Assembly (NCBI GenBank): GCA_951406725.2 | Contig: OX597828.1 | Location: 9,362,001-9,426,000 of the forward strand | From: Octopus vulgaris | Taxonomy: Eukaryota | DNA length: 64,000 nt | Reading direction: 5' to 3' | In this document: positions 6,159-62,648 of the stretch, piece after piece | Layout: each line of letters begins with the position of its first letter | How positions within the stretch are numbered: position 1 is the stretch's first letter | The notes under the pieces: model-generated | Seen by the model: the letters and a program-made list of their open reading frames with translations, nothing else | Databases searched by the model: none | Told to the model about the DNA's origin: nothing | Position numbers and translations under genes: made by a program

Positions 6159-6493
6159 AGGGACAGAGAGAGAGAGAGATGGGAAAAAAGGAGAGTTGCA
6201 GATGCATACACTGTAACCATGGTTATTTAAATAGCGCTTCAAAGTAAAGCTGATATATATTCTGAAAGATTCATCAATCTCATTCTTATATTTAGACAGT
6301 TCATTTCCTTCATCCTATTTTCTTTTTAACCGAGAAAAATTTACCTGGCAGTAATAGTTAATGGTTTCAATTATTTACCAATGAATCACACACACACTGC
6401 TGTATGTGGGAGTGCAATAAATAGAAAAGAAAAAAGAAAGATTCATATGTATATATGCATATATAGGAAAGCATGTAAGTACACAGATATGTA

Positions 6494-6559
<66 letters not shown>

Positions 6560-6583
6560 TGTATATATATATAAAAATATATA

Positions 6584-6616
<33 letters not shown>

Positions 6617-7189
6617 GTATATAAATATATGTGTATATATATATATATATATGTGTATATATATATATACATACACATACATATATATGTATACATATAT
6701 ATATACATATATATATTATATATATATATATATATATACATAAACGTGTTTGTGAGTTACATATTTGCGTTTACGTATACGCCGTCACCCTGCATTTAAG
6801 AAGACCATACATGTATCATCTTACATAGTATATTCGTGTTTATTTCAATTTCGTTTCATTTTCCTCATTGACATTCTGATAGCTTCAATACAATCATTTT
6901 GTACGCGTTTTGAGTACATTCCTAATCACAGATAATTTTTCAGTCCACATTGACAAACACAGAATCGTTCTGCATTTGAAACACAATGATATAATAATAA
7001 CTAAACTTCATTCAGAATCATTTCTAAAACGTCAATAATTGACATGTAATATACAAACATTATACAACTATTTGCTTGTATTCGAGATTCTTGAATGCTT
7101 GTTCCACTTTTTGAAAAGCAATTAGAGATCAAGTTTAGTAGCACCTGAAATTGTTTGACTTCTAAAAGAATGAAGCACATGTGTTTCTT

Positions 7190-7788
7190 ATTTTTTTATT
7201 GCCCACAAGGGGCTAAAAATAGAGGGGACAAACAAGAACAAACAAAGGGATTAAGTCGGTTATATCGACCACAGTGCGTAACTGGTACTTATTTAATCGA
7301 CCCCGAAGTAATGAAAAGCAAAGTCGACCTCGGCGGAATTTGAACTCAGAACGTAGCAGCAGACGAAATAACAGTTTCTTTACTACCTACAAGGGGCTAA
7401 ACACAGAGGGTACAAACAAGGACAGACAAACGGATTAAGTCGAATATTTCGACTCCAGTGCGTAACTGGTATTTAATTTATTGACCCTGAAAGGATGAAA
7501 GACAAAGTCGACCTCAGCGGAATTTGAACTCAGAACGTAAAGACAGACGAAATACCTGTTTCTTTACTACCCACAAGGGGCTAAACGCAGAGGGGACAAA
7601 CAATGACAGACAAACGGATTAAGTCGATTATATCGACACCAGTGTGTAACTGGTACTTATTTAATCGACCCCGAAAGGATGAAAGGCAAAGTCGACCTCG
7701 GCGGAATTTGAACTCAGAACGTAACGACAGACGAAATACCGCTAAGCATTTCAGCAGGCGCGGTAACGTTTCTGCCAGCGCGCCGCCT
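7190..7788 (-). mobile_element. tRNA-derived SINE, family A: one head plus three tandem ~184-bp body units
   Basis: Head ggcggcgcgctggcagaaacgtt...; each unit has a B-box-like gagttcaaattcc and core gcctttcatcctttcggggtcgat(t)aaa..agtaccag; unit marker cccacaagggg at ~7202, ~7386, ~7570. Confidence 0.85.
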
Positions 7789-7884
7789 TAGAATATATGC
7801 CTTTCTATTACATGTGTGTTCTTATGTTGTTTTCTCTGAGTGCATAAATATGTATGCATATTTATATACTCTCTTCTGCTTTAA

Positions 7885-8309
7885 TTACCTAAATTCTTTC
7901 TCTGAGGAGGGAATTGGTTTCTAAAAAATACAAAGATCAAGCGTTGCTATATAGATAATATAAACAATGTAACATTCTAAACTTCAGAAAAGACTTGGAT
8001 AGTTTTATTGCTCCACTTACAGATTGTAATTTTAATGTAAAAGTTAGTGGGATGATTCATTTTCCTGAAAACCTTACCTCATCCAGATTGTCACTAAGGT
8101 ATTTCCCGACAAAACCAAGTGTACCAATTGTTATTGGCATCAACGTGAATTTATAATTTGGATATAGAACCTGTAGGTTTCGAAGCAGTTGGCCATAGTT
8201 ATCCTCACATCAGCAGGATAGTTGGCCATATTTATATTGCCCATATTTTGATGATAATGTTCCAGTAGTATTCTATGTGTTGATGCTTGTGTATGTATTC
8301 ACCATCAGG
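7885..8309 (-). pseudogene. 3' fragment of R4/Dong-like non-LTR retrotransposon (C-terminal restriction-like endonuclease region)
   Basis: Minus-strand translation PDGEYIHKHQHIEYYWNIIIK...EDNYGQLLRNLQVLYPNYKFTLMPITIGTLGFV...LQSVSGAIKLSKSFLKF resembles the P.xIGALG C-terminal motif of RLE-bearing elements. Confidence 0.65.
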
Positions 8310-8410
8310 TGCGTTCTCTATATTTATACTAGGACAGTCCATCTTTTCTGAATGATATCGTAAATATATATATATATATATATATGTATGTATATATATA
8401 TATATGTATG

Positions 8411-8455
<45 letters not shown>

Positions 8456-10199
8456 ATAAATTAGTTTTGGTGCAATGTCATTTTGCTTTGGGAGGTAGTA
8501 CCTACATAGCAAATTTTGTACAGCTGCTTCACATATGTGTGATGTCCTTTAGAGAAATATGCCATAATCTACATTTTCCGCCGCATCATACATCTCCAAG
8601 AGCTTTTTTTGTCTCTTTTGTTTATTGTATATTTTCCTTTTCTTTAATTGAAAATACATAACATTTCGAAGTGTGGTATGATGACCCGCCCACGATAGAA
8701 ATTGAGACTACGTTTCGAATCAATATTACTATCGTCTTCAAATTTACCAGTAACATATTCATACATAGTCTATTTTGTTACGCTGAATAAATCTTTGAGG
8801 TATTAGTCCACCTGCTTTGCAGATTGCATGAAAGGTAATCAAAAGTCGTATTTCATGAGGAGTTCGCTGACGATACGTAGGATACTGTTCCCTTAATTTT
8901 TCAGCACTAAGTAGATTACTTATTTTTGCTGCAAGTGTTTAGCAAGTGTTGTCTGAAAGAAATTGTACAGCATTCGAAGACCCTCTGCACAGATCCCACA
9001 TTCTTAGCCCTCTACCTCATTCATGTCTTCCTATGTAGGGCACTTTATGTAAGATGATAGTTTCGACTCCAATAGATAACTAGCATAATATTTCCGGGTC
9101 AGTAACTCATGTATGTATGCATAAAAGTTTGCATATATGTATGCATGTATATATATAAGAAATTTAGTGGATGCTTATATAATTTTATTTGTATCGCGAT
9201 AAATACATATCAAATAGTGTAATACAAATAAAATGTATAACAATAGCATCAACATAAGAAATACTAAAAAAAGATGCTTACATATTTATCTAGCTACTAT
9301 GTGAACAATCGCTTCGGTGATCACAATGTGAGCCATGTTAGATGTAAAAGTGCCCTACAATGTGTCCGGATTTTATGAGAACGAATTTTCTTACACATTG
9401 GTGGTAAATAACAAGTAAGACTGATGAGGACCGTATGTTCGAATATTCAAACATATGAAACAATAAAGTTTAGGAAAGGTAGAAAGCGGAGGTAGTGGGT
9501 GAAACTATTATTGAAAGAAATCTTACTATATCACTACGATATATTTGAAAATATACTGCTATATGTTTTAAGGGAAGAATGTAGTCATTTAAGTAGAATA
9601 ATGGGAATAAGCATAATTGATTTGGGATATATAATATGAAATATAAAATATTAAGAAATAAATGTTTGTTATAATATTTACAAGTTATAGTTAAGACAGA
9701 AAAATAATTCCATATTGTATAGTAAAATAGTAATTTAGATAGAATTTCGTAGGAAAGTTTATATAATTATTATTAAAATATTTAGCATTTCAATAGACTA
9801 ACAGATGCATTCGATTATTAAGAGAAAAAGTATTAGATATATAAAGATTAAGAGGAATTTAAAGATTTTTGCTACAAATGAAAAGATACGATGTAATTCT
9901 ATAAAACTCTCCACGTATTTCTAAGGTAAATTATGATAACGAGTAATCTCCCTTTGTTCATGTGGCTAGAAGTCACTGAGGAGGAAATTACATCCACATT
10001 TTTGACAATATACATATACATATAACAGATGTTGTTTGTTGTTGTTGTTGTTGAGGATGATGATGATGATGAGAATGGCTCGTTAGATGAGCATGACCAA
10101 CACTGACAGGAGTGTCAGCAACGACCGTGCGAGACCTATTAATTGAGTGCAGCTTGCACATGACAATGTCTCTCACTACCAATAGTCATTTATATATTT

Positions 10200-43982: not shown

Positions 43983-44021
43983 AAGAAAGACCGGTTTCGC
44001 GTGTAGCTTTTCAAATTTCTT
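43983..44021 (-). ncRNA. Hammerhead motif with U3:A8 core in the 3' pseudo-LTR of the Penelope-like element
   Basis: Minus strand: aagaaa-t-TTGAAAA-gc(tacac)gc-GAAA-ccgg-TC-tttctt; palindromic ACCGGU stem III; GUC triplet; stem II only 2 bp. Confidence 0.65.
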
Positions 44022-51874: not shown

Positions 51875-51925
<51 letters not shown>

Positions 51926-51929
<4 letters not shown>

Positions 51930-52674
51930 AACAACAAGTCAAGATAGAAATAACGTGCCAACTTCAAGTCATACAACACCTCACTACTTCCACTTATTCA
52001 TATTCTCCCTTCTCTTTCTTCTTCTTCCTCTCCTTCTTCCTCATCATCATTATTATCATCATGGTCGTCGTCATCATCATCACCATCATCATCATCATCT
52101 TCTTCTTCTTCTTCTTCTCTCCTTCTTCTTCTTCTTCTTCTTCTTCTTCTTCTACTTCTTCTTCTTCTTCGTCTTCTTCTTCTTCTTCTTCTTCTTCTTC
52201 TTCTTCTTCTTCTTCTTCTTCTTCTTCTTCTTCTGCTCCACCTTCTACTTCTTAACTTTATCACTAATGCTTTTTAGTATAACACCTACGCAAATTCTAT
52301 AAACAAACCTTTCAATAGAAATATTCTCCTGAATTGAACTGCAACTGACCATTCAAAATACGACAATCAAGGCACTCCCAAATGTTTCCACCCCTTCTCC
52401 TCATCATCCTTCTTCTTCTTCTACCCTACCAAGAATTCACAACGACCTCGAACACACAAGTGCAAACAAGAGAGACAGAGAAAGGGAGAAACAAGGAAAA
52501 TGCCACTTATATTTGAACACTATACAAATATTCCTTTAAAAAAAATTTCTTTTAATTTTTCTAAATTTAATTATTTAATCGTTACAGTTGAAAAGGTCTC
52601 AAAATGACCGAAACCGGTACTGAAATGATCTTTATAAAATTATTTTAGCATTTTCTATCTTGACTTGTTTTTTC
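51926..52674 (+). mobile_element. Non-autonomous Penelope-type element in (TA)n with short inverted terminus and U3:A8 hammerhead
   Basis: gaaaaacaacaagtcaagatagaaa (51926) is inverted relative to tttctatcttgacttgttttttc (~52652-52674); 52410-52674 is homologous to 57200-57445 and, inverted, to 56541-56790; (TA)n on both flanks. Confidence 0.7.
52585..52622 (+). ncRNA. Minimal type I hammerhead motif with compensatory U3:A8 core
   Basis: cag-TTGAAAA-ggtc(tcaaaat)gacc-GAAA-ccgg-TA-ctg: stems I and II perfectly paired, palindromic stem III, GUA triplet. Confidence 0.8.
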
Positions 52675-52816
52675 ATATATATATATATATACATATATTT
52701 CGCTTTGGGATTTGGTTTGCAAGTTTATTTATATGAGTTCGTGTGTTGAAGCATATTCCGTTGTGTCCCTTATATTATAAGGCACAAAAAGCAAATGACT
52801 CTCCCCAGACACAACA

Positions 52817-56540: not shown

Positions 56541-57445
56541 GCCAAGGTAGAGAATGCTAAAATAATTTTAGGAAACCGCATTTCAGTAACGGTTTCAACA
56601 TTGAGACTTTTTCACCAGTAAGTATGGAAAAGAATTAAATTTCGGAAAAAATTAAAAGAAAAGTTTTTAAAAAGTATATTTGCATAGTATTCAAATACAA
56701 GGGGCATTTTCCTTGTTTCTGTCTTCTCTGTCTCTCTTGTTTACTCTTGTGGGTTCAAGGCCGTTGGGAATTCTTGGCAGAGAAGAAGAAAAAGAAGGAG
56801 GAGGACGAGAAGGGGAGGAGGTGGGGGAGAAGGAGGGGGAGAAGGAGGAGGAGGAAGGGAGAAGGAGGAGGGGGAGAAGGAGGGGTGAAGGAGGAGAAAG
56901 AAGAGGAGGAAAAGGAAGACCAGAAGAAAAATGTGGTAGTGCCATGATAGTAATAAGATGTTAAATAGTCAAGTGGCCTGAAAGTGATTTGTTGTGGATG
57001 GTAGTAGTGATTGAATGTCTTTTGCAAATATAAACAGTACATTCAAAGATATGTCTCAAGAATTCAATCGCTAATACTATCCACTGCAAGTCACTTTCAG
57101 GGCACTTGACGATTTAAAATTCTACTACTATTATGTACCCTGTATTTTCTTCTTGTCTTCGTCTCCCTCCTCCTTCTCCTCCTTCTTCTACTCCTCCTTC
57201 TTCTTCTCTGTCAAGAATTTACAACAACCTCGAACCAAGAAGAGTAAAAAAGAGAGACAGAGACAGACAGAAACGAGGAAAATGTCCCTTGTATTTGAAT
57301 ACTATGCCAATATACTTTAAAAAACTTTTCTTTTAATTTTTCCAAACTTTAATTGGTTTCCCTAATTACAGTTTCAATGACTGAAACCGGTGCCGAAATG
57401 TTTTTTATAAAATTATTTTAGCATTTTCTATCTTGACTTTTTTCC
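56541..57445. repeat. ~900-bp imperfect palindrome made of two inverted copies of the 52.4-kb Penelope-type family
   Basis: e.g. tcaaatacaaggggcattttcc / ggaaaatgtcccttgtatttga and gtcaagtggcctgaaagtga / tcactttcagggcacttgac; centre ~57020-57060. Confidence 0.8.
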
Positions 57446-57480
57446 ATATGTATAAATATATATATATGTGTGTGTGTGTG

Positions 57481-58491: not shown

Positions 58492-59730
58492 CAGTGGTTG
58501 GACAAAATAATTGAAACAGCTTAACATTTCAAATCAATTTTTTTAACATGTGATAGGACCGCATTTGGCAGTAATTACAGCTTGAATTCTTACAGTTATG
58601 GACTCGTACAAACTTTGAATTGTTTCCAAAGGAATTTTTCTCCATTCTTCAGTTAAAATAGGCTCCTTACTTGTTTTTCTAAAATGCACAATAAATATTC
58701 AATAATATTGTAATCTGGGGACTGCGGTGGCCAGATAAAATGTTCAAATTCACTAGAATGTTCCTCGTACCATTCAGTAACAACTTTAGCTGCGTGAATT
58801 GGTGCGCTATCATCATGAATGTTTGCGTTTCCTTCCAGAAACAGTTCTGCAAATATAGGATGAATTTTATCAGACAAAATGTTTAAGTAATCTTCACTGT
58901 TAATTCTGCCATGAAGGGAAACCATTGGGCCGGCGGATTTCCAAGATATAGCCCCGCAGATCATCACAGATCCGCCTCCATGTTTAACAGTTGGAAGATG
59001 GCAATCTGGGTTAAGTGCTTCTTGTGGTTCTCTCCACTTGTATACTAGGCTGGTGGTCGGAAATAAGGTAAAGGATGACTTGTAAAGAGAAAATAACATT
59101 CTTCCACTGCTCTGGGAACCGATTCTGTAGGTTTTTAATCAATTCTAAATGCTTTGCAACGTTTGTTTTTGAGAGAAGCGGTTTTCCGATTGCAGCCCTC
59201 CCATGAATTCCGGCCTTGTGCAGCTCCCGACGAATGATTTTTGTGAAAACTGGGTTCTCGAGGCGGACATTAAGCTCTGCCGGAATTTTGGAGGCTGCAC
59301 TTATGTGATCCTTTCCAACAATTCGCGTAAAAGTCCGAGGATCACTATCTGAAAGTTTTGGTTTTCTCCCAGAGTTTCGTTTCGACGAGCAGGTTTTTCC
59401 CTCTTTCCCAAAGGTTTTCATTATTTTCGATACACCAAACATTTCGGCTGTTTTCGTTACGCTAGCGCCTGCCATACGAGCACCAACAATTTGACCTCGT
59501 TGAAAGTCCGATAGATTTGTCATTTTAATCAATTTTGATTACTTTCTCCTCATGATATCTGAAAAGAAACAGCAATTTTTAGCAAAACATACTAAGCAGC
59601 ACTTAGTAAATAAAGCGGCACTTAGCAAACAAAAAAACATAAAAAGAAACACGCTTTTGGCGGTTTTATAGATATTTCAAAATTATGATGCTATAATATT
59701 AGGCATTTCCATTATTTTGTCCAACCCCTG
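58492..59730 (-). mobile_element. Tc1-family DNA transposon, 1239 bp, ~30-bp TIRs, TA target duplication
   Basis: TIRs cagtggttggacaaaataattgaaa / tttccattattttgtccaacccctg; TA at 58490-58491 and 59731-59732. Confidence 0.93.
58653..59532 (-). pseudogene. Frameshifted Tc1 transposase, D-36-E spacing
   Basis: LSDFQRGQIVGAR..GRKPKLS (HTH/GRPR-like), WKNVIFS, PTVKHGGGSVMI, HDDSAPIH, WPPQSPDYNIIE; 36 residues counted between the second D of HDD and the E. Confidence 0.9.
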
Positions 59731-62523: not shown

Positions 62524-62648
62524 AAAAAAAGTCACGATAGAAAATGCTAAAAGTGTTTTCTCTATCTTTTCTCTATTCACACACCCTGTCCAGTCTTCTG
62601 AACCCCTTCATTATGCAGGTGCTCCTAATTCTTTGTGCATTCACTCTG

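What the first reader, a model, noticed from the sequence alone, without database searches (positions are those of the whole stretch)
52585..52622. Well-formed hammerhead with compensatory U3:A8 core in a non-autonomous element
Seen: cag-UUGAAAA-gguc(ucaaaau)gacc-GAAA-CCGG-UA-cug. Every hammerhead element is in register, but C3 and G8 are both replaced (U3, A8), keeping the 3:8 pair. The inverted homologue at ~56584-56616 still shows TGAAAA. The element's 3' end (..ttttagcattttctat) resembles the autonomous element's end (..ctttactattttctat). Inference: a non-autonomous partner of a U3:A8-ribozyme Penelope lineage.
Basis: partly seen in the sequence, partly recalled or inferred. Interest (0 to 1): 0.8.

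Follow-up and report, generated by a model that had tools for sequence, protein, structure and literature searches.

The report
Penelope hammerhead with known U3:A8 core
The 38-base motif has the full layout of a hammerhead self-cutting RNA and sits in the tail of a broken-off copy of a protein-coding Penelope-like jumping gene; its swapped U-A core pair is already published and is the commonest form in this genome, and it is predicted to cut only slowly and in pairs.

Summary
Observation confirmed: 52585-52622 is a type I hammerhead layout with U3:A8, a GUA site at 52619/52620 and a palindromic helix III. The pattern occurs in 0 of 100 shuffles, and 1,815 genomic sites match its 34-base motif (positions 3 and 8 left free). 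'Non-autonomous' is refuted. The window copy is only the 3' UTR of a 5'-truncated insertion. Its family has 4,386-bp head-to-tail units with an intact RT/GIY-YIG frame, and 10 of the 30 closest copies run straight into that frame. U3:A8 is not new: the same UUGAAAA core is in print for Schistosoma Penelope-like elements (PMC4209133), and this scan met it before on other genomes. What I add: U3:A8 makes up 6,883 of 7,416 core matches in this genome (C3:G8 128), across coding families and 360-bp tandem retrozymes. The closest outside relatives keep C3:G8. One retrozyme family holds all four 3/8 states. Cleavage is untested. None of 30 copies starts at the cut site, and mismatched-core subfamilies have also spread. 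Side finding: the family has two frames overlapping at an in-phase UUUUUUA, shared by 12 of 19 relatives.

The parts
52585..52622 (+). Type I hammerhead motif: helix I (3 bp proximal), U3:A8 core, 4-bp helix II with 7-nt loop, palindromic A15.1-CCGG-U16.1, A17; predicted cut 52619/52620
   Evidence: 1,815 genomic matches to the 34-base family pattern
52578..52629 (+). Extended helix I: 52578-52583 pairs with 52624-52629 beyond an A.A mismatch; only partly kept in the older subfamily
   Evidence: pair probabilities 0.68-0.99 in the 53-mer
51950..52675 (+). Body of the insertion: 3' UTR / pLTR of Penelope-like family A, 5'-truncated about 95 nt after the stop of the RT/GIY-YIG frame, with an internal (TTC/TCA)n tract; ends in (TA)n
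   Evidence: 83% over 772 columns to the coding copy L034; unique parts 86%, 91% and 96%
51920..51950 (-). Short inverted copy of the element's own 3' end at the 5' junction, flanked by (TA)n
   Evidence: inverted 5'-truncated copies and (TA)n targets are described for PLEs in PMC8557442
56543..56819 (-). Decayed copy of an older subfamily (O) of the same 3' UTR; position 3 reads G and helix II is damaged
   Evidence: 82% to the finding's copy; relatives 88-90%; subfamily motif
57172..57449 (+). Second decayed copy, inverted partner of 56543-56819; hammerhead core deleted, so it is no dimer partner
   Evidence: alignment
43984..44020 (-). U3:A8 hammerhead of sister family B: 2-bp helix II, and one base short at the cut site compared with the intact form at L204
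43850..47860 (-). Frameshifted copy of coding Penelope-like family B (ORF1, RT, CxxxxCxxC linker, GIY-YIG); a sister family, not the helper; ends approximate
62524..62552 (-). 29-bp scrap of the family A 3' end

Best explanation
The motif has the complete type I hammerhead layout and lies in the 3' repeat of a 5'-truncated copy of a coding Penelope-like retrotransposon family, where it likely cuts the element's RNA slowly and only when two copies pair through the palindromic ACCGGU, while this lone copy is probably inert. Shown: the layout; about 1,800 near-identical copies; one motif per 4,386-bp head-to-tail unit, about 120 nt before ORF1 and about 700 nt after the RT/GIY-YIG stop; conservation and covariation that fit hammerhead rules. 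Inferred: in tandem read-through RNA the two motifs form a double hammerhead and cut after GUA, releasing unit RNA that is religated, or is often left uncut. The element's RT then copies more than one unit from a (TA)n nick, so inserted copies run through the cut site. U3:A8 replaces C3:G8 as the tertiary core pair; with A17 it allows a competing U3-A17 pair, so the rate is predicted to be low.
For: Layout and chance. Folding: helices I and II form in the monomer; the dimer minimum is the double-hammerhead arrangement (-31.9 kcal/mol with U3-A17 closed, -29.7 with the core open, two monomers -24.4). Coding family: (RVT_1 E 3.5e-8; GIY-YIG E 3.8e-4, below its curated cut-off). Constraint between subfamilies W and Y: 0 of 38 motif columns differ against 23 of 159 flank columns (Fisher p 0.009; Y n = 10). 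The older subfamily O swaps G10.1-C11.1 for A-U and shortens loop II, leaving the core unchanged. Helix I, not part of the degenerate patterns: 55 of 72 positions pair over 18 motif clusters, against 30.9 when permuted, 0 of 20,000. NUH rule: G17 42 against H17 6,883. In 82 outside loci with positions 3 and 8 left free, 17 of 17 distinct plus-strand motifs (16 after merging two near-identical ones) are Watson-Crick at 3:8; of 11 hits in shuffled sequence only 3 were. Literature: U3-A8 is natural and reported active in vitro (PMC3088659); PLE minimal hammerheads cut weakly and only as dimers (PMC4209133).
Against: No cleavage was measured. Of 30 ORF1-bearing copies, 0 begin at the cut site, 28 run upstream through it and 2 begin downstream (several loci share a tandem array). 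That fits a religated circle or uncut RNA equally. Subfamilies with a mismatched core have spread: U3.G8 in family B (319 pattern matches in all), and C3.A8 in a tandem retrozyme, including a trimer at L194 (86 matches in all). Common family B forms also lack one base at the cut site. In a full pairwise mutagenesis of one hammerhead only the G:C swap rescued this pair, and all other double mutants in the region were low (PMC9901934). Whole PLE clades thrive without hammerheads (PMC8557442). The 18 clusters are partly related, and I picked most non-A/B loci from hit lists, so the helix II and palindrome tallies are biased.
Confidence: 0.7

Rival explanations
1. The motif is a hammerhead by descent but no longer needs to cut: it is kept as a folded RNA signal (for RT/ORF1 binding, dimerisation or template choice), and U3:A8 reflects drift in an AT-rich genome under relaxed catalytic demand.
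For: 0 of 30 copies start at the cut site. Spreading subfamilies with U3.G8, C3.A8, a 2-bp helix II or a base missing at the cut site. Low activity of non-G:C swaps in one mutagenesis study. The authors of PMC4209133 do not exclude functions other than cleavage.
Against: G17 is nearly absent (42 against 6,883). All distinct outside motifs are Watson-Crick at 3:8. Tandem 361-bp repeats with U3:A8 in every unit have the arrangement of self-cleaving retrozymes (L140, four units).
Confidence: 0.22
2. One reading: a non-autonomous element that borrows the enzymes of the neighbouring Penelope-like family.
For: The window copy itself has no coding sequence, and both families have U3:A8 and CCGG.
Against: Own intact RT/GIY-YIG frame in tandem units. 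10 of the 30 nearest copies are attached to it, and 5' ends are scattered rather than fixed. The true non-autonomous hammerhead repeats in this genome are different sequences, the 359-361-bp tandems.
Confidence: 0.04
3. Chance resemblance to a hammerhead in an AT-rich repeat.
For: Helix I proximal is only 3 bp and the motif is short; Rfam listed no hammerhead among the 150 of 223 matches shown.
Against: Shuffle and reversed-pattern controls; covariation across families; position matches that of canonical C3:G8 hammerheads in related elements.
Confidence: 0.01

Closest known systems
U3-A8 hammerheads in the pLTRs of Cercyon Penelope-like elements of Schistosoma mansoni (Cervera and De la Pena 2014, PMC4209133)
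   Same: Same UUGAAAA core (supplement row Schistosoma_mansoni(4)), type I topology, palindromic helix III that implies dimer action, place in the pLTR, mostly lone truncated copies.
   Different: Here helix II is 4 bp with no extra base at 9/10.1 and helix III carries a 4-nt palindrome, closer to the canonical metazoan form than to the minimal form. U3:A8 is 93% of pattern matches here; that paper reports about 1,300 U3-A8 hits beside about 2,000 C3-G8 minimal motifs and thousands of canonical ones.
EN+ Penelope-like elements of the Neptune/Nematis type (PMC8557442)
   Same: RT followed by a CX2-5CxxC linker (CGRPNCGIC) and C-terminal GIY-YIG; head-to-tail partial tandems, inverted 5'-truncated copies, 30-40-bp tails, (TA)n targets, hammerhead near the 3' end.
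   Different: Two frames overlapping at an in-phase UUUUUUA rather than the single ORF stated for canonical EN+ PLEs. The Fig. 1 legend of that paper mentions an ORF1 separated by a frameshift, but the figure could not be seen, so which clade it refers to is unknown. No tree was built with named references.
Metazoan non-LTR retrozymes (PMC7229834; bioRxiv 10.64898/2026.07.22.740005)
   Same: Type I hammerhead with a palindromic helix III; the 359-361-bp tandems found elsewhere in this genome fit this class.
   Different: The finding's element is not one: it is the UTR of a 4.4-kb coding unit, not a short tandem repeat.
Natural U3-A8 hammerheads of Perreault et al. 2011 (PMC3088659)
   Same: Same compensatory core change.
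   Different: Described there as rare variants; activity is cited to an earlier in vitro study that I could not read.

Membership tests
Type I hammerhead ribozyme | Core N3-UGA-N-N8-A ... GAAA ... UH with a Watson-Crick 3:8 pair | tested here: met
   U3:A8, U16.1-A17; departs from the C3:G8 consensus by a published swap
Type I hammerhead ribozyme | Helices I and II form around the core; G10.1-C11.1 | tested here: met
   (helix II pair probability 0.97 in the 53-mer, 0.56-0.82 in longer contexts; helix I proximal 0.99, falling to 0.27-0.72); covariation
Type I hammerhead ribozyme | Stable helix III, as monomer or through a palindrome in a dimer | tested here: met
   Met for the dimer only: ACCGGU self-complementary, dimer minimum -31.9 against -24.4 kcal/mol; closing it in the monomer costs about 5 kcal/mol
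Type I hammerhead ribozyme | Loop I-loop II tertiary contact | not tested
   An A.A internal mismatch in helix I and a 7-nt loop II are present; no contact was modelled
Type I hammerhead ribozyme | Self-cleavage after H17 | not testable with these tools
   No assay; the sequencing runs held were contigs only
EN+ Penelope-like element | RT with C-terminal GIY-YIG endonuclease | tested here: met
   Family level: L070 frame 6262-8616, RVT_1 above cut-off, GIY-YIG E 3.8e-4 just below cut-off; relatives carry both domains. The window copy lacks it
EN+ Penelope-like element | Partial-tandem pLTR and inverted 5'-truncated arrangements | tested here: met
   L070, L069, L076, L077; window 51920-51950
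EN+ Penelope-like element | Hammerhead in the pLTR | tested here: met
   One per unit at L070 4936 and 9322
Neptune/Nematis clades | CX2-5CxxC linker before GIY-YIG and (TA)n targets | tested here: met
   CGRPNCGIC; (TA)n flanks
Neptune/Nematis clades | Placement by RT phylogeny with named references | not tested
   No named reference sequences were held
Canonical EN+ PLE (single ORF) | Single open reading frame | tested here: not met
   Two overlapping frames in families A and B; 14 of 18 relatives have 100 or more open codons upstream in the matching frame
Non-autonomous element / non-LTR retrozyme | No coding capacity at family level; short tandem units or fixed ends | tested here: not met

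The most novel reading that the evidence does not exclude
U3:A8, often together with A17 and its competing U3-A17 pair, is a selected slow version of the hammerhead that has swept independently through coding Penelope families and their 360-bp retrozyme parasites in this animal. It lets tandem transcripts survive long enough to be copied for more than one unit. The retrozyme family that holds spreading C3:G8, C3.A8 and U3:A8 subfamilies (and a U3.G8 copy) is a snapshot of a catalytic core pair being swapped through viable mismatched intermediates.
Probability: 0.15. Interest if true: 0.6.

Novelty: new member of a known kind. Interest (0 to 1): 0.3.

Why it matters
The motif itself is an ordinary member of a published variant class. 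Its use is practical. (1) A descriptor that demands CUGANGA would find 128 of 7,416 core matches in this genome, so surveys with the canonical core undercount hammerheads here about fifty-fold. (2) The family has young, intact tandem units (several copies 100% identical over 271 bp), and a retrozyme family offers natural C3:G8, U3:A8 and mismatch variants on one scaffold. That makes the open question of what Penelope hammerheads do in vivo directly testable. (3) The conserved two-frame layout with an in-phase slippery heptamer suggests a gag-pol-like translation scheme in an endonuclease-bearing Penelope clade.

Tried and rejected
Rfam scan of the window: 223 matches at E up to 5; the 150 shown were microsatellite-driven (nearly all miRNA models) with no hammerhead; the other 73 were not visible. 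Looking for a pile-up of 5' ends at the cut site: none, 0 of 30. Sequencing runs: no RNA holder listed on record. Four runs laid (X2, X4, X13, X16) were contigs, which cannot show ends; no GT..AG joint at the ORF1/ORF2 overlap among the 15 of 16 joints shown; no evidence either way. Search for a fused ORF1-ORF2 protein among longer proteins: 0 of 2,491 candidates, weak evidence. Single-sequence scan of genome contigs: 0 of 24. Idea that with U3 the excluded base at 17 would switch from G to A: rejected, G17 is still rare (42) and A17 is common. The one family A copy with C3:G8 (L139) sits on a young element, 99% identical in its best ORF2 segment; a single copy, not interpreted. A loose hit of my first scanner on the window's minus strand near 48.0 kb, with a helix II loop of about 50 nt, was treated as chance. 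CpG decay as the cause of U3:A8 was considered: C3 is followed by U, so it is not a CpG, and in subfamily O the neighbouring CCGG is mostly intact while U11.1 is the majority. PMC1986816, the in vitro study of this pair, is not held. Literature searches: 'hammerhead' + 'U3-A8' gave 1 paper; 'hammerhead' + 'C3U' + 'G8A' gave 0; 'Penelope' + 'ribosomal frameshift' + 'GIY-YIG' + 'retrotransposon' gave 0; two searches gave only PMC8557442 and PMC5408684. The library lacks most subscription journals, so none of this shows absence from print.

Full report
Observation. A degenerate pattern for it has 2 matches in the window (this one and 43989-44014 on the minus strand) and none in 100 shuffles. In the genome (G000, 2.8 Gb, 227 contigs) the 34-base family pattern with positions 3 and 8 left free has 1,815 matches and its reversed control 0; 99 of the first 100 listed are U3:A8. 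All 30 nearest copies are U3:A8 with A17.

Folding. In the 53-mer 52578-52630 the minimum-energy fold has helices I and II, with helix I extended by six pairs beyond an A.A mismatch. Closing helix III in the monomer costs about 5 kcal/mol. Two copies fold best as a double hammerhead through ACCGGU/ACCGGU (-31.9 kcal/mol; -29.7 with the core fully open; two monomers -24.4). Both minimum folds also pair U3 with A17. This is the analogue of the C3-G17 trapped form discussed in PMC3884650 (passages), and I infer that it slows the ribozyme. In longer contexts helix I probabilities fall to 0.27-0.72.

What the element is. The insertion spans 51950-52675, with a short inverted copy of its own 3' end at 51920-51950 and (TA)n on both sides. 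The 30 nearest copies (95-100% identical) have scattered 5' ends, from about -151 to beyond -1,650 nt from U3, and 10 of the 30 carry RT/GIY-YIG codons directly upstream on the same strand. All 8 long copies that I chose to extend reached coding sequence. L070 shows head-to-tail units of 4,386 bp: hammerhead, ORF1 (411 codons from the first ATG, no Pfam match), ORF2 (784 codons stop to stop; RVT_1 E 3.5e-8; GIY-YIG E 3.8e-4, just under its cut-off), 3' UTR, hammerhead. The CGRPNCGIC linker and (TA)n targets fit the Neptune/Nematis type as described in PMC8557442 (passages); no tree was built. The window copy begins about 95 nt after the ORF2 stop, so it is a truncated UTR of a coding family and not a non-autonomous partner. 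The coding element at about 43.85-47.9 kb is a sister family B at about 55% amino-acid identity. In the window the finding's motif has no intact same-strand partner: 57172-57449 has lost the core, and 56543-56819 is on the other strand and decayed.

Evidence of constraint. Between the window's subfamily and the youngest one, 0 of 38 motif columns differ against 23 of 159 flank columns (Fisher p 0.009; only 10 of the 30 young loci gave a usable stretch). The older subfamily keeps the core, swaps G10.1-C11.1 for A-U and shortens loop II; 4 of 38 columns differ, so its overall rate is not lower than in the flanks, but none of the changes is in the core. Over 18 motif clusters from my loci, helix I, which the degenerate patterns did not ask for, pairs at 55 of 72 positions against 30.9 when arms are permuted (0 of 20,000). 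The clusters are partly related, and I picked most non-A/B loci by eye from hit lists, so the helix II and palindrome tallies in that call are biased and I do not lean on them. G17 occurs 42 times against 6,883 for H17. In 82 outside loci that encode ORF2 relatives, a scanner with positions 3 and 8 free found 28 plus-strand hits in 22 loci. These are 17 distinct motifs (16 after merging two near-identical ones), all Watson-Crick at 3:8: 11 C:G, 3 U:A, 1 G:C, 1 A:U. Shuffles gave 0.55 hits per round, 3 of 11 of them Watson-Crick. The six motifs from relatives at 42-46% identity are all C3:G8, three of them with the same CCGG; U3:A8 reappears only in relatives at 28-30%. I infer that U3:A8 is derived in the host's lineage and has arisen more than once. 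The other 60 loci gave no hit, many being short or partial.

Genome-wide picture. With one pattern shape (G after A9, 6-16 nt, CGAAA, four G/C, TH) the counts are U3:A8 6,883, U3.G8 319, C3:G8 128 and C3.A8 86, with reversed controls 19, 6, 2 and 3. These are lower bounds (the older A-U subfamily is missed), and they count copies, not events. U3:A8 is found in families A and B, in other motifs next to RT/GIY-YIG sequence (L151, L152) and in a 361-bp tandem repeat (L140, four units). Most C3:G8 matches belong to one 359-360-bp tandem repeat, whose cluster also holds U3:A8, C3.A8 and U3.G8 copies.

Results against an essential cutting role. Of 30 copies that include the start of ORF1, none begins at the cut site: 28 run upstream through the motif (9 of them off the end of the locus, 19 ending between -78 and -1,234) and 2 begin at +51 and +105 (several loci share an array). 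The RT template therefore spans the site, which fits a religated circle, as proposed in PMC4209133, or uncut RNA. Mismatched cores have spread: a family B subfamily with U3.G8, and a retrozyme subfamily with C3.A8 including a trimer. Common family B forms are also one base short at the cut site compared with L204. In PMC9901934 (passages) only the G:C swap rescued this pair in one hammerhead. Sequencing runs gave nothing on ends.

Comparison with what is known. PMC4209133 (parts 1-2 of 4 read; supplement file 2 searched, file 1 not available) reports U3-A8 in Cercyon PLEs of Schistosoma mansoni, about 1,300 hits, lists a motif with the same UUGAAAA core, and finds no cleavage for a monomer and low cleavage for dimers of a minimal motif. 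'Octopus' and 'cephalopod' do not occur in the supplement file searched. PMC3088659 (passages) reports natural U3-A8 and cites in vitro activity; the cited study could not be read. PMC7229834 (passages) and bioRxiv 10.64898/2026.07.22.740005 (part 1 of 5; supplements not seen) define non-LTR retrozymes. PMC13282606 (passages) counts recently active Penelope families in Octopus vulgaris, with no occurrence of 'ribozyme' or 'hammerhead' in its main text. PMC5408684 (passages) added nothing on PLE frameshifts. A 2017 paper on dimeric PLE hammerhead variants is recalled only and was not seen. The scan's own notes list several U3:A8 PLE hammerheads on other genomes and none on this genome; I had reached my reading before seeing them. 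I found no report of U3:A8 dominance in a cephalopod, which is a limited search.

Side finding. In families A and B, ORF1 reads through CAT TTT TTA while ORF2 overlaps in the -1 frame. Among 19 relatives at 38% identity or more with room upstream, 12 have TTTTTTA near the ORF2 start, all 12 in the frameshift phase and none out of phase; one is followed by C, which is not a splice acceptor. No strong hairpin follows in family A (-1.8 kcal/mol), a moderate one in B (-13.0). I infer -1 ribosomal frameshifting; splicing is the rival. The Fig. 1 legend of PMC8557442 mentions a frameshifted ORF1 in some PLE type, so this may be known.

Verdict. A real, well-formed motif of a published kind, in a truncated copy of a coding Penelope-like family. 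New member of a known kind; interest 0.3, mostly for the genome-wide dominance of U3:A8 and the natural variant series that make the function testable.

Noticed in passing
L070:6284-6293; L189 (family B); window 46489-46480 minus; L236-L262: Two-frame layout: ORF1 (about 410 codons, no Pfam match) overlaps the RT/GIY-YIG frame at an in-phase UUUUUUA; 12 of 19 relatives have the heptamer, all in the -1 phase. Likely programmed frameshift; a splice acceptor is the rival.
   Followed up: partly
L111, L118, L150, L144, L194, L198: A 359-360-bp tandem retrozyme-like family with canonical type I layout holds all four 3/8 states; C3.A8 occurs in every unit of a trimer.
   Followed up: partly
L140-L142, L203: A second, 361-363-bp tandem retrozyme-like family with U3:A8 and a CGCG palindrome.
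   Followed up: partly
window 43984-44020 minus; L204, L189-L193: Family B hammerhead has a 2-bp helix II; common subfamilies lack one base at the cut site and one has U3.G8, yet they spread.
   Followed up: partly
L071:about 1260-1350 minus (G000:C1:70852733-70852857): Chimeric junction: a full family A unit ends just after its hammerhead and continues directly into a family B hammerhead and ORF1, which suggests a template switch between sister families.
   Followed up: no
L139 (G000:C13:524775): A single young family A copy with the canonical C3:G8 core, a double change on an otherwise typical background.
   Followed up: partly
L312:117 and L314:1969: Candidate hammerheads with G3:C8 and A3:U8 cores beside distant PLE RT relatives in metagenome contigs; single instances, could be chance.
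   Followed up: no
L162, L176, L186 (L070 coordinate about 4608): Three of 30 copies start at -358/-359 from the cut site and a fourth at -371; possibly a transcription start or a microhomology.
   Followed up: no
L170/L171/L182, L172/L173/L178, L166/L180: Tandem arrays of two to three near-identical full units 4.4 kb apart, which points to recent activity.
   Followed up: no
window 58653-59538 minus: Tc1/mariner-like transposase pieces in two frames; label from sequence recall, not searched.
   Followed up: no
P0029, P0071, P0076, P0077, P0093; L315-L317: Animal-type PLE proteins filed under bacterial symbiont genomes or MAGs, probably host DNA in the bins.
   Followed up: no
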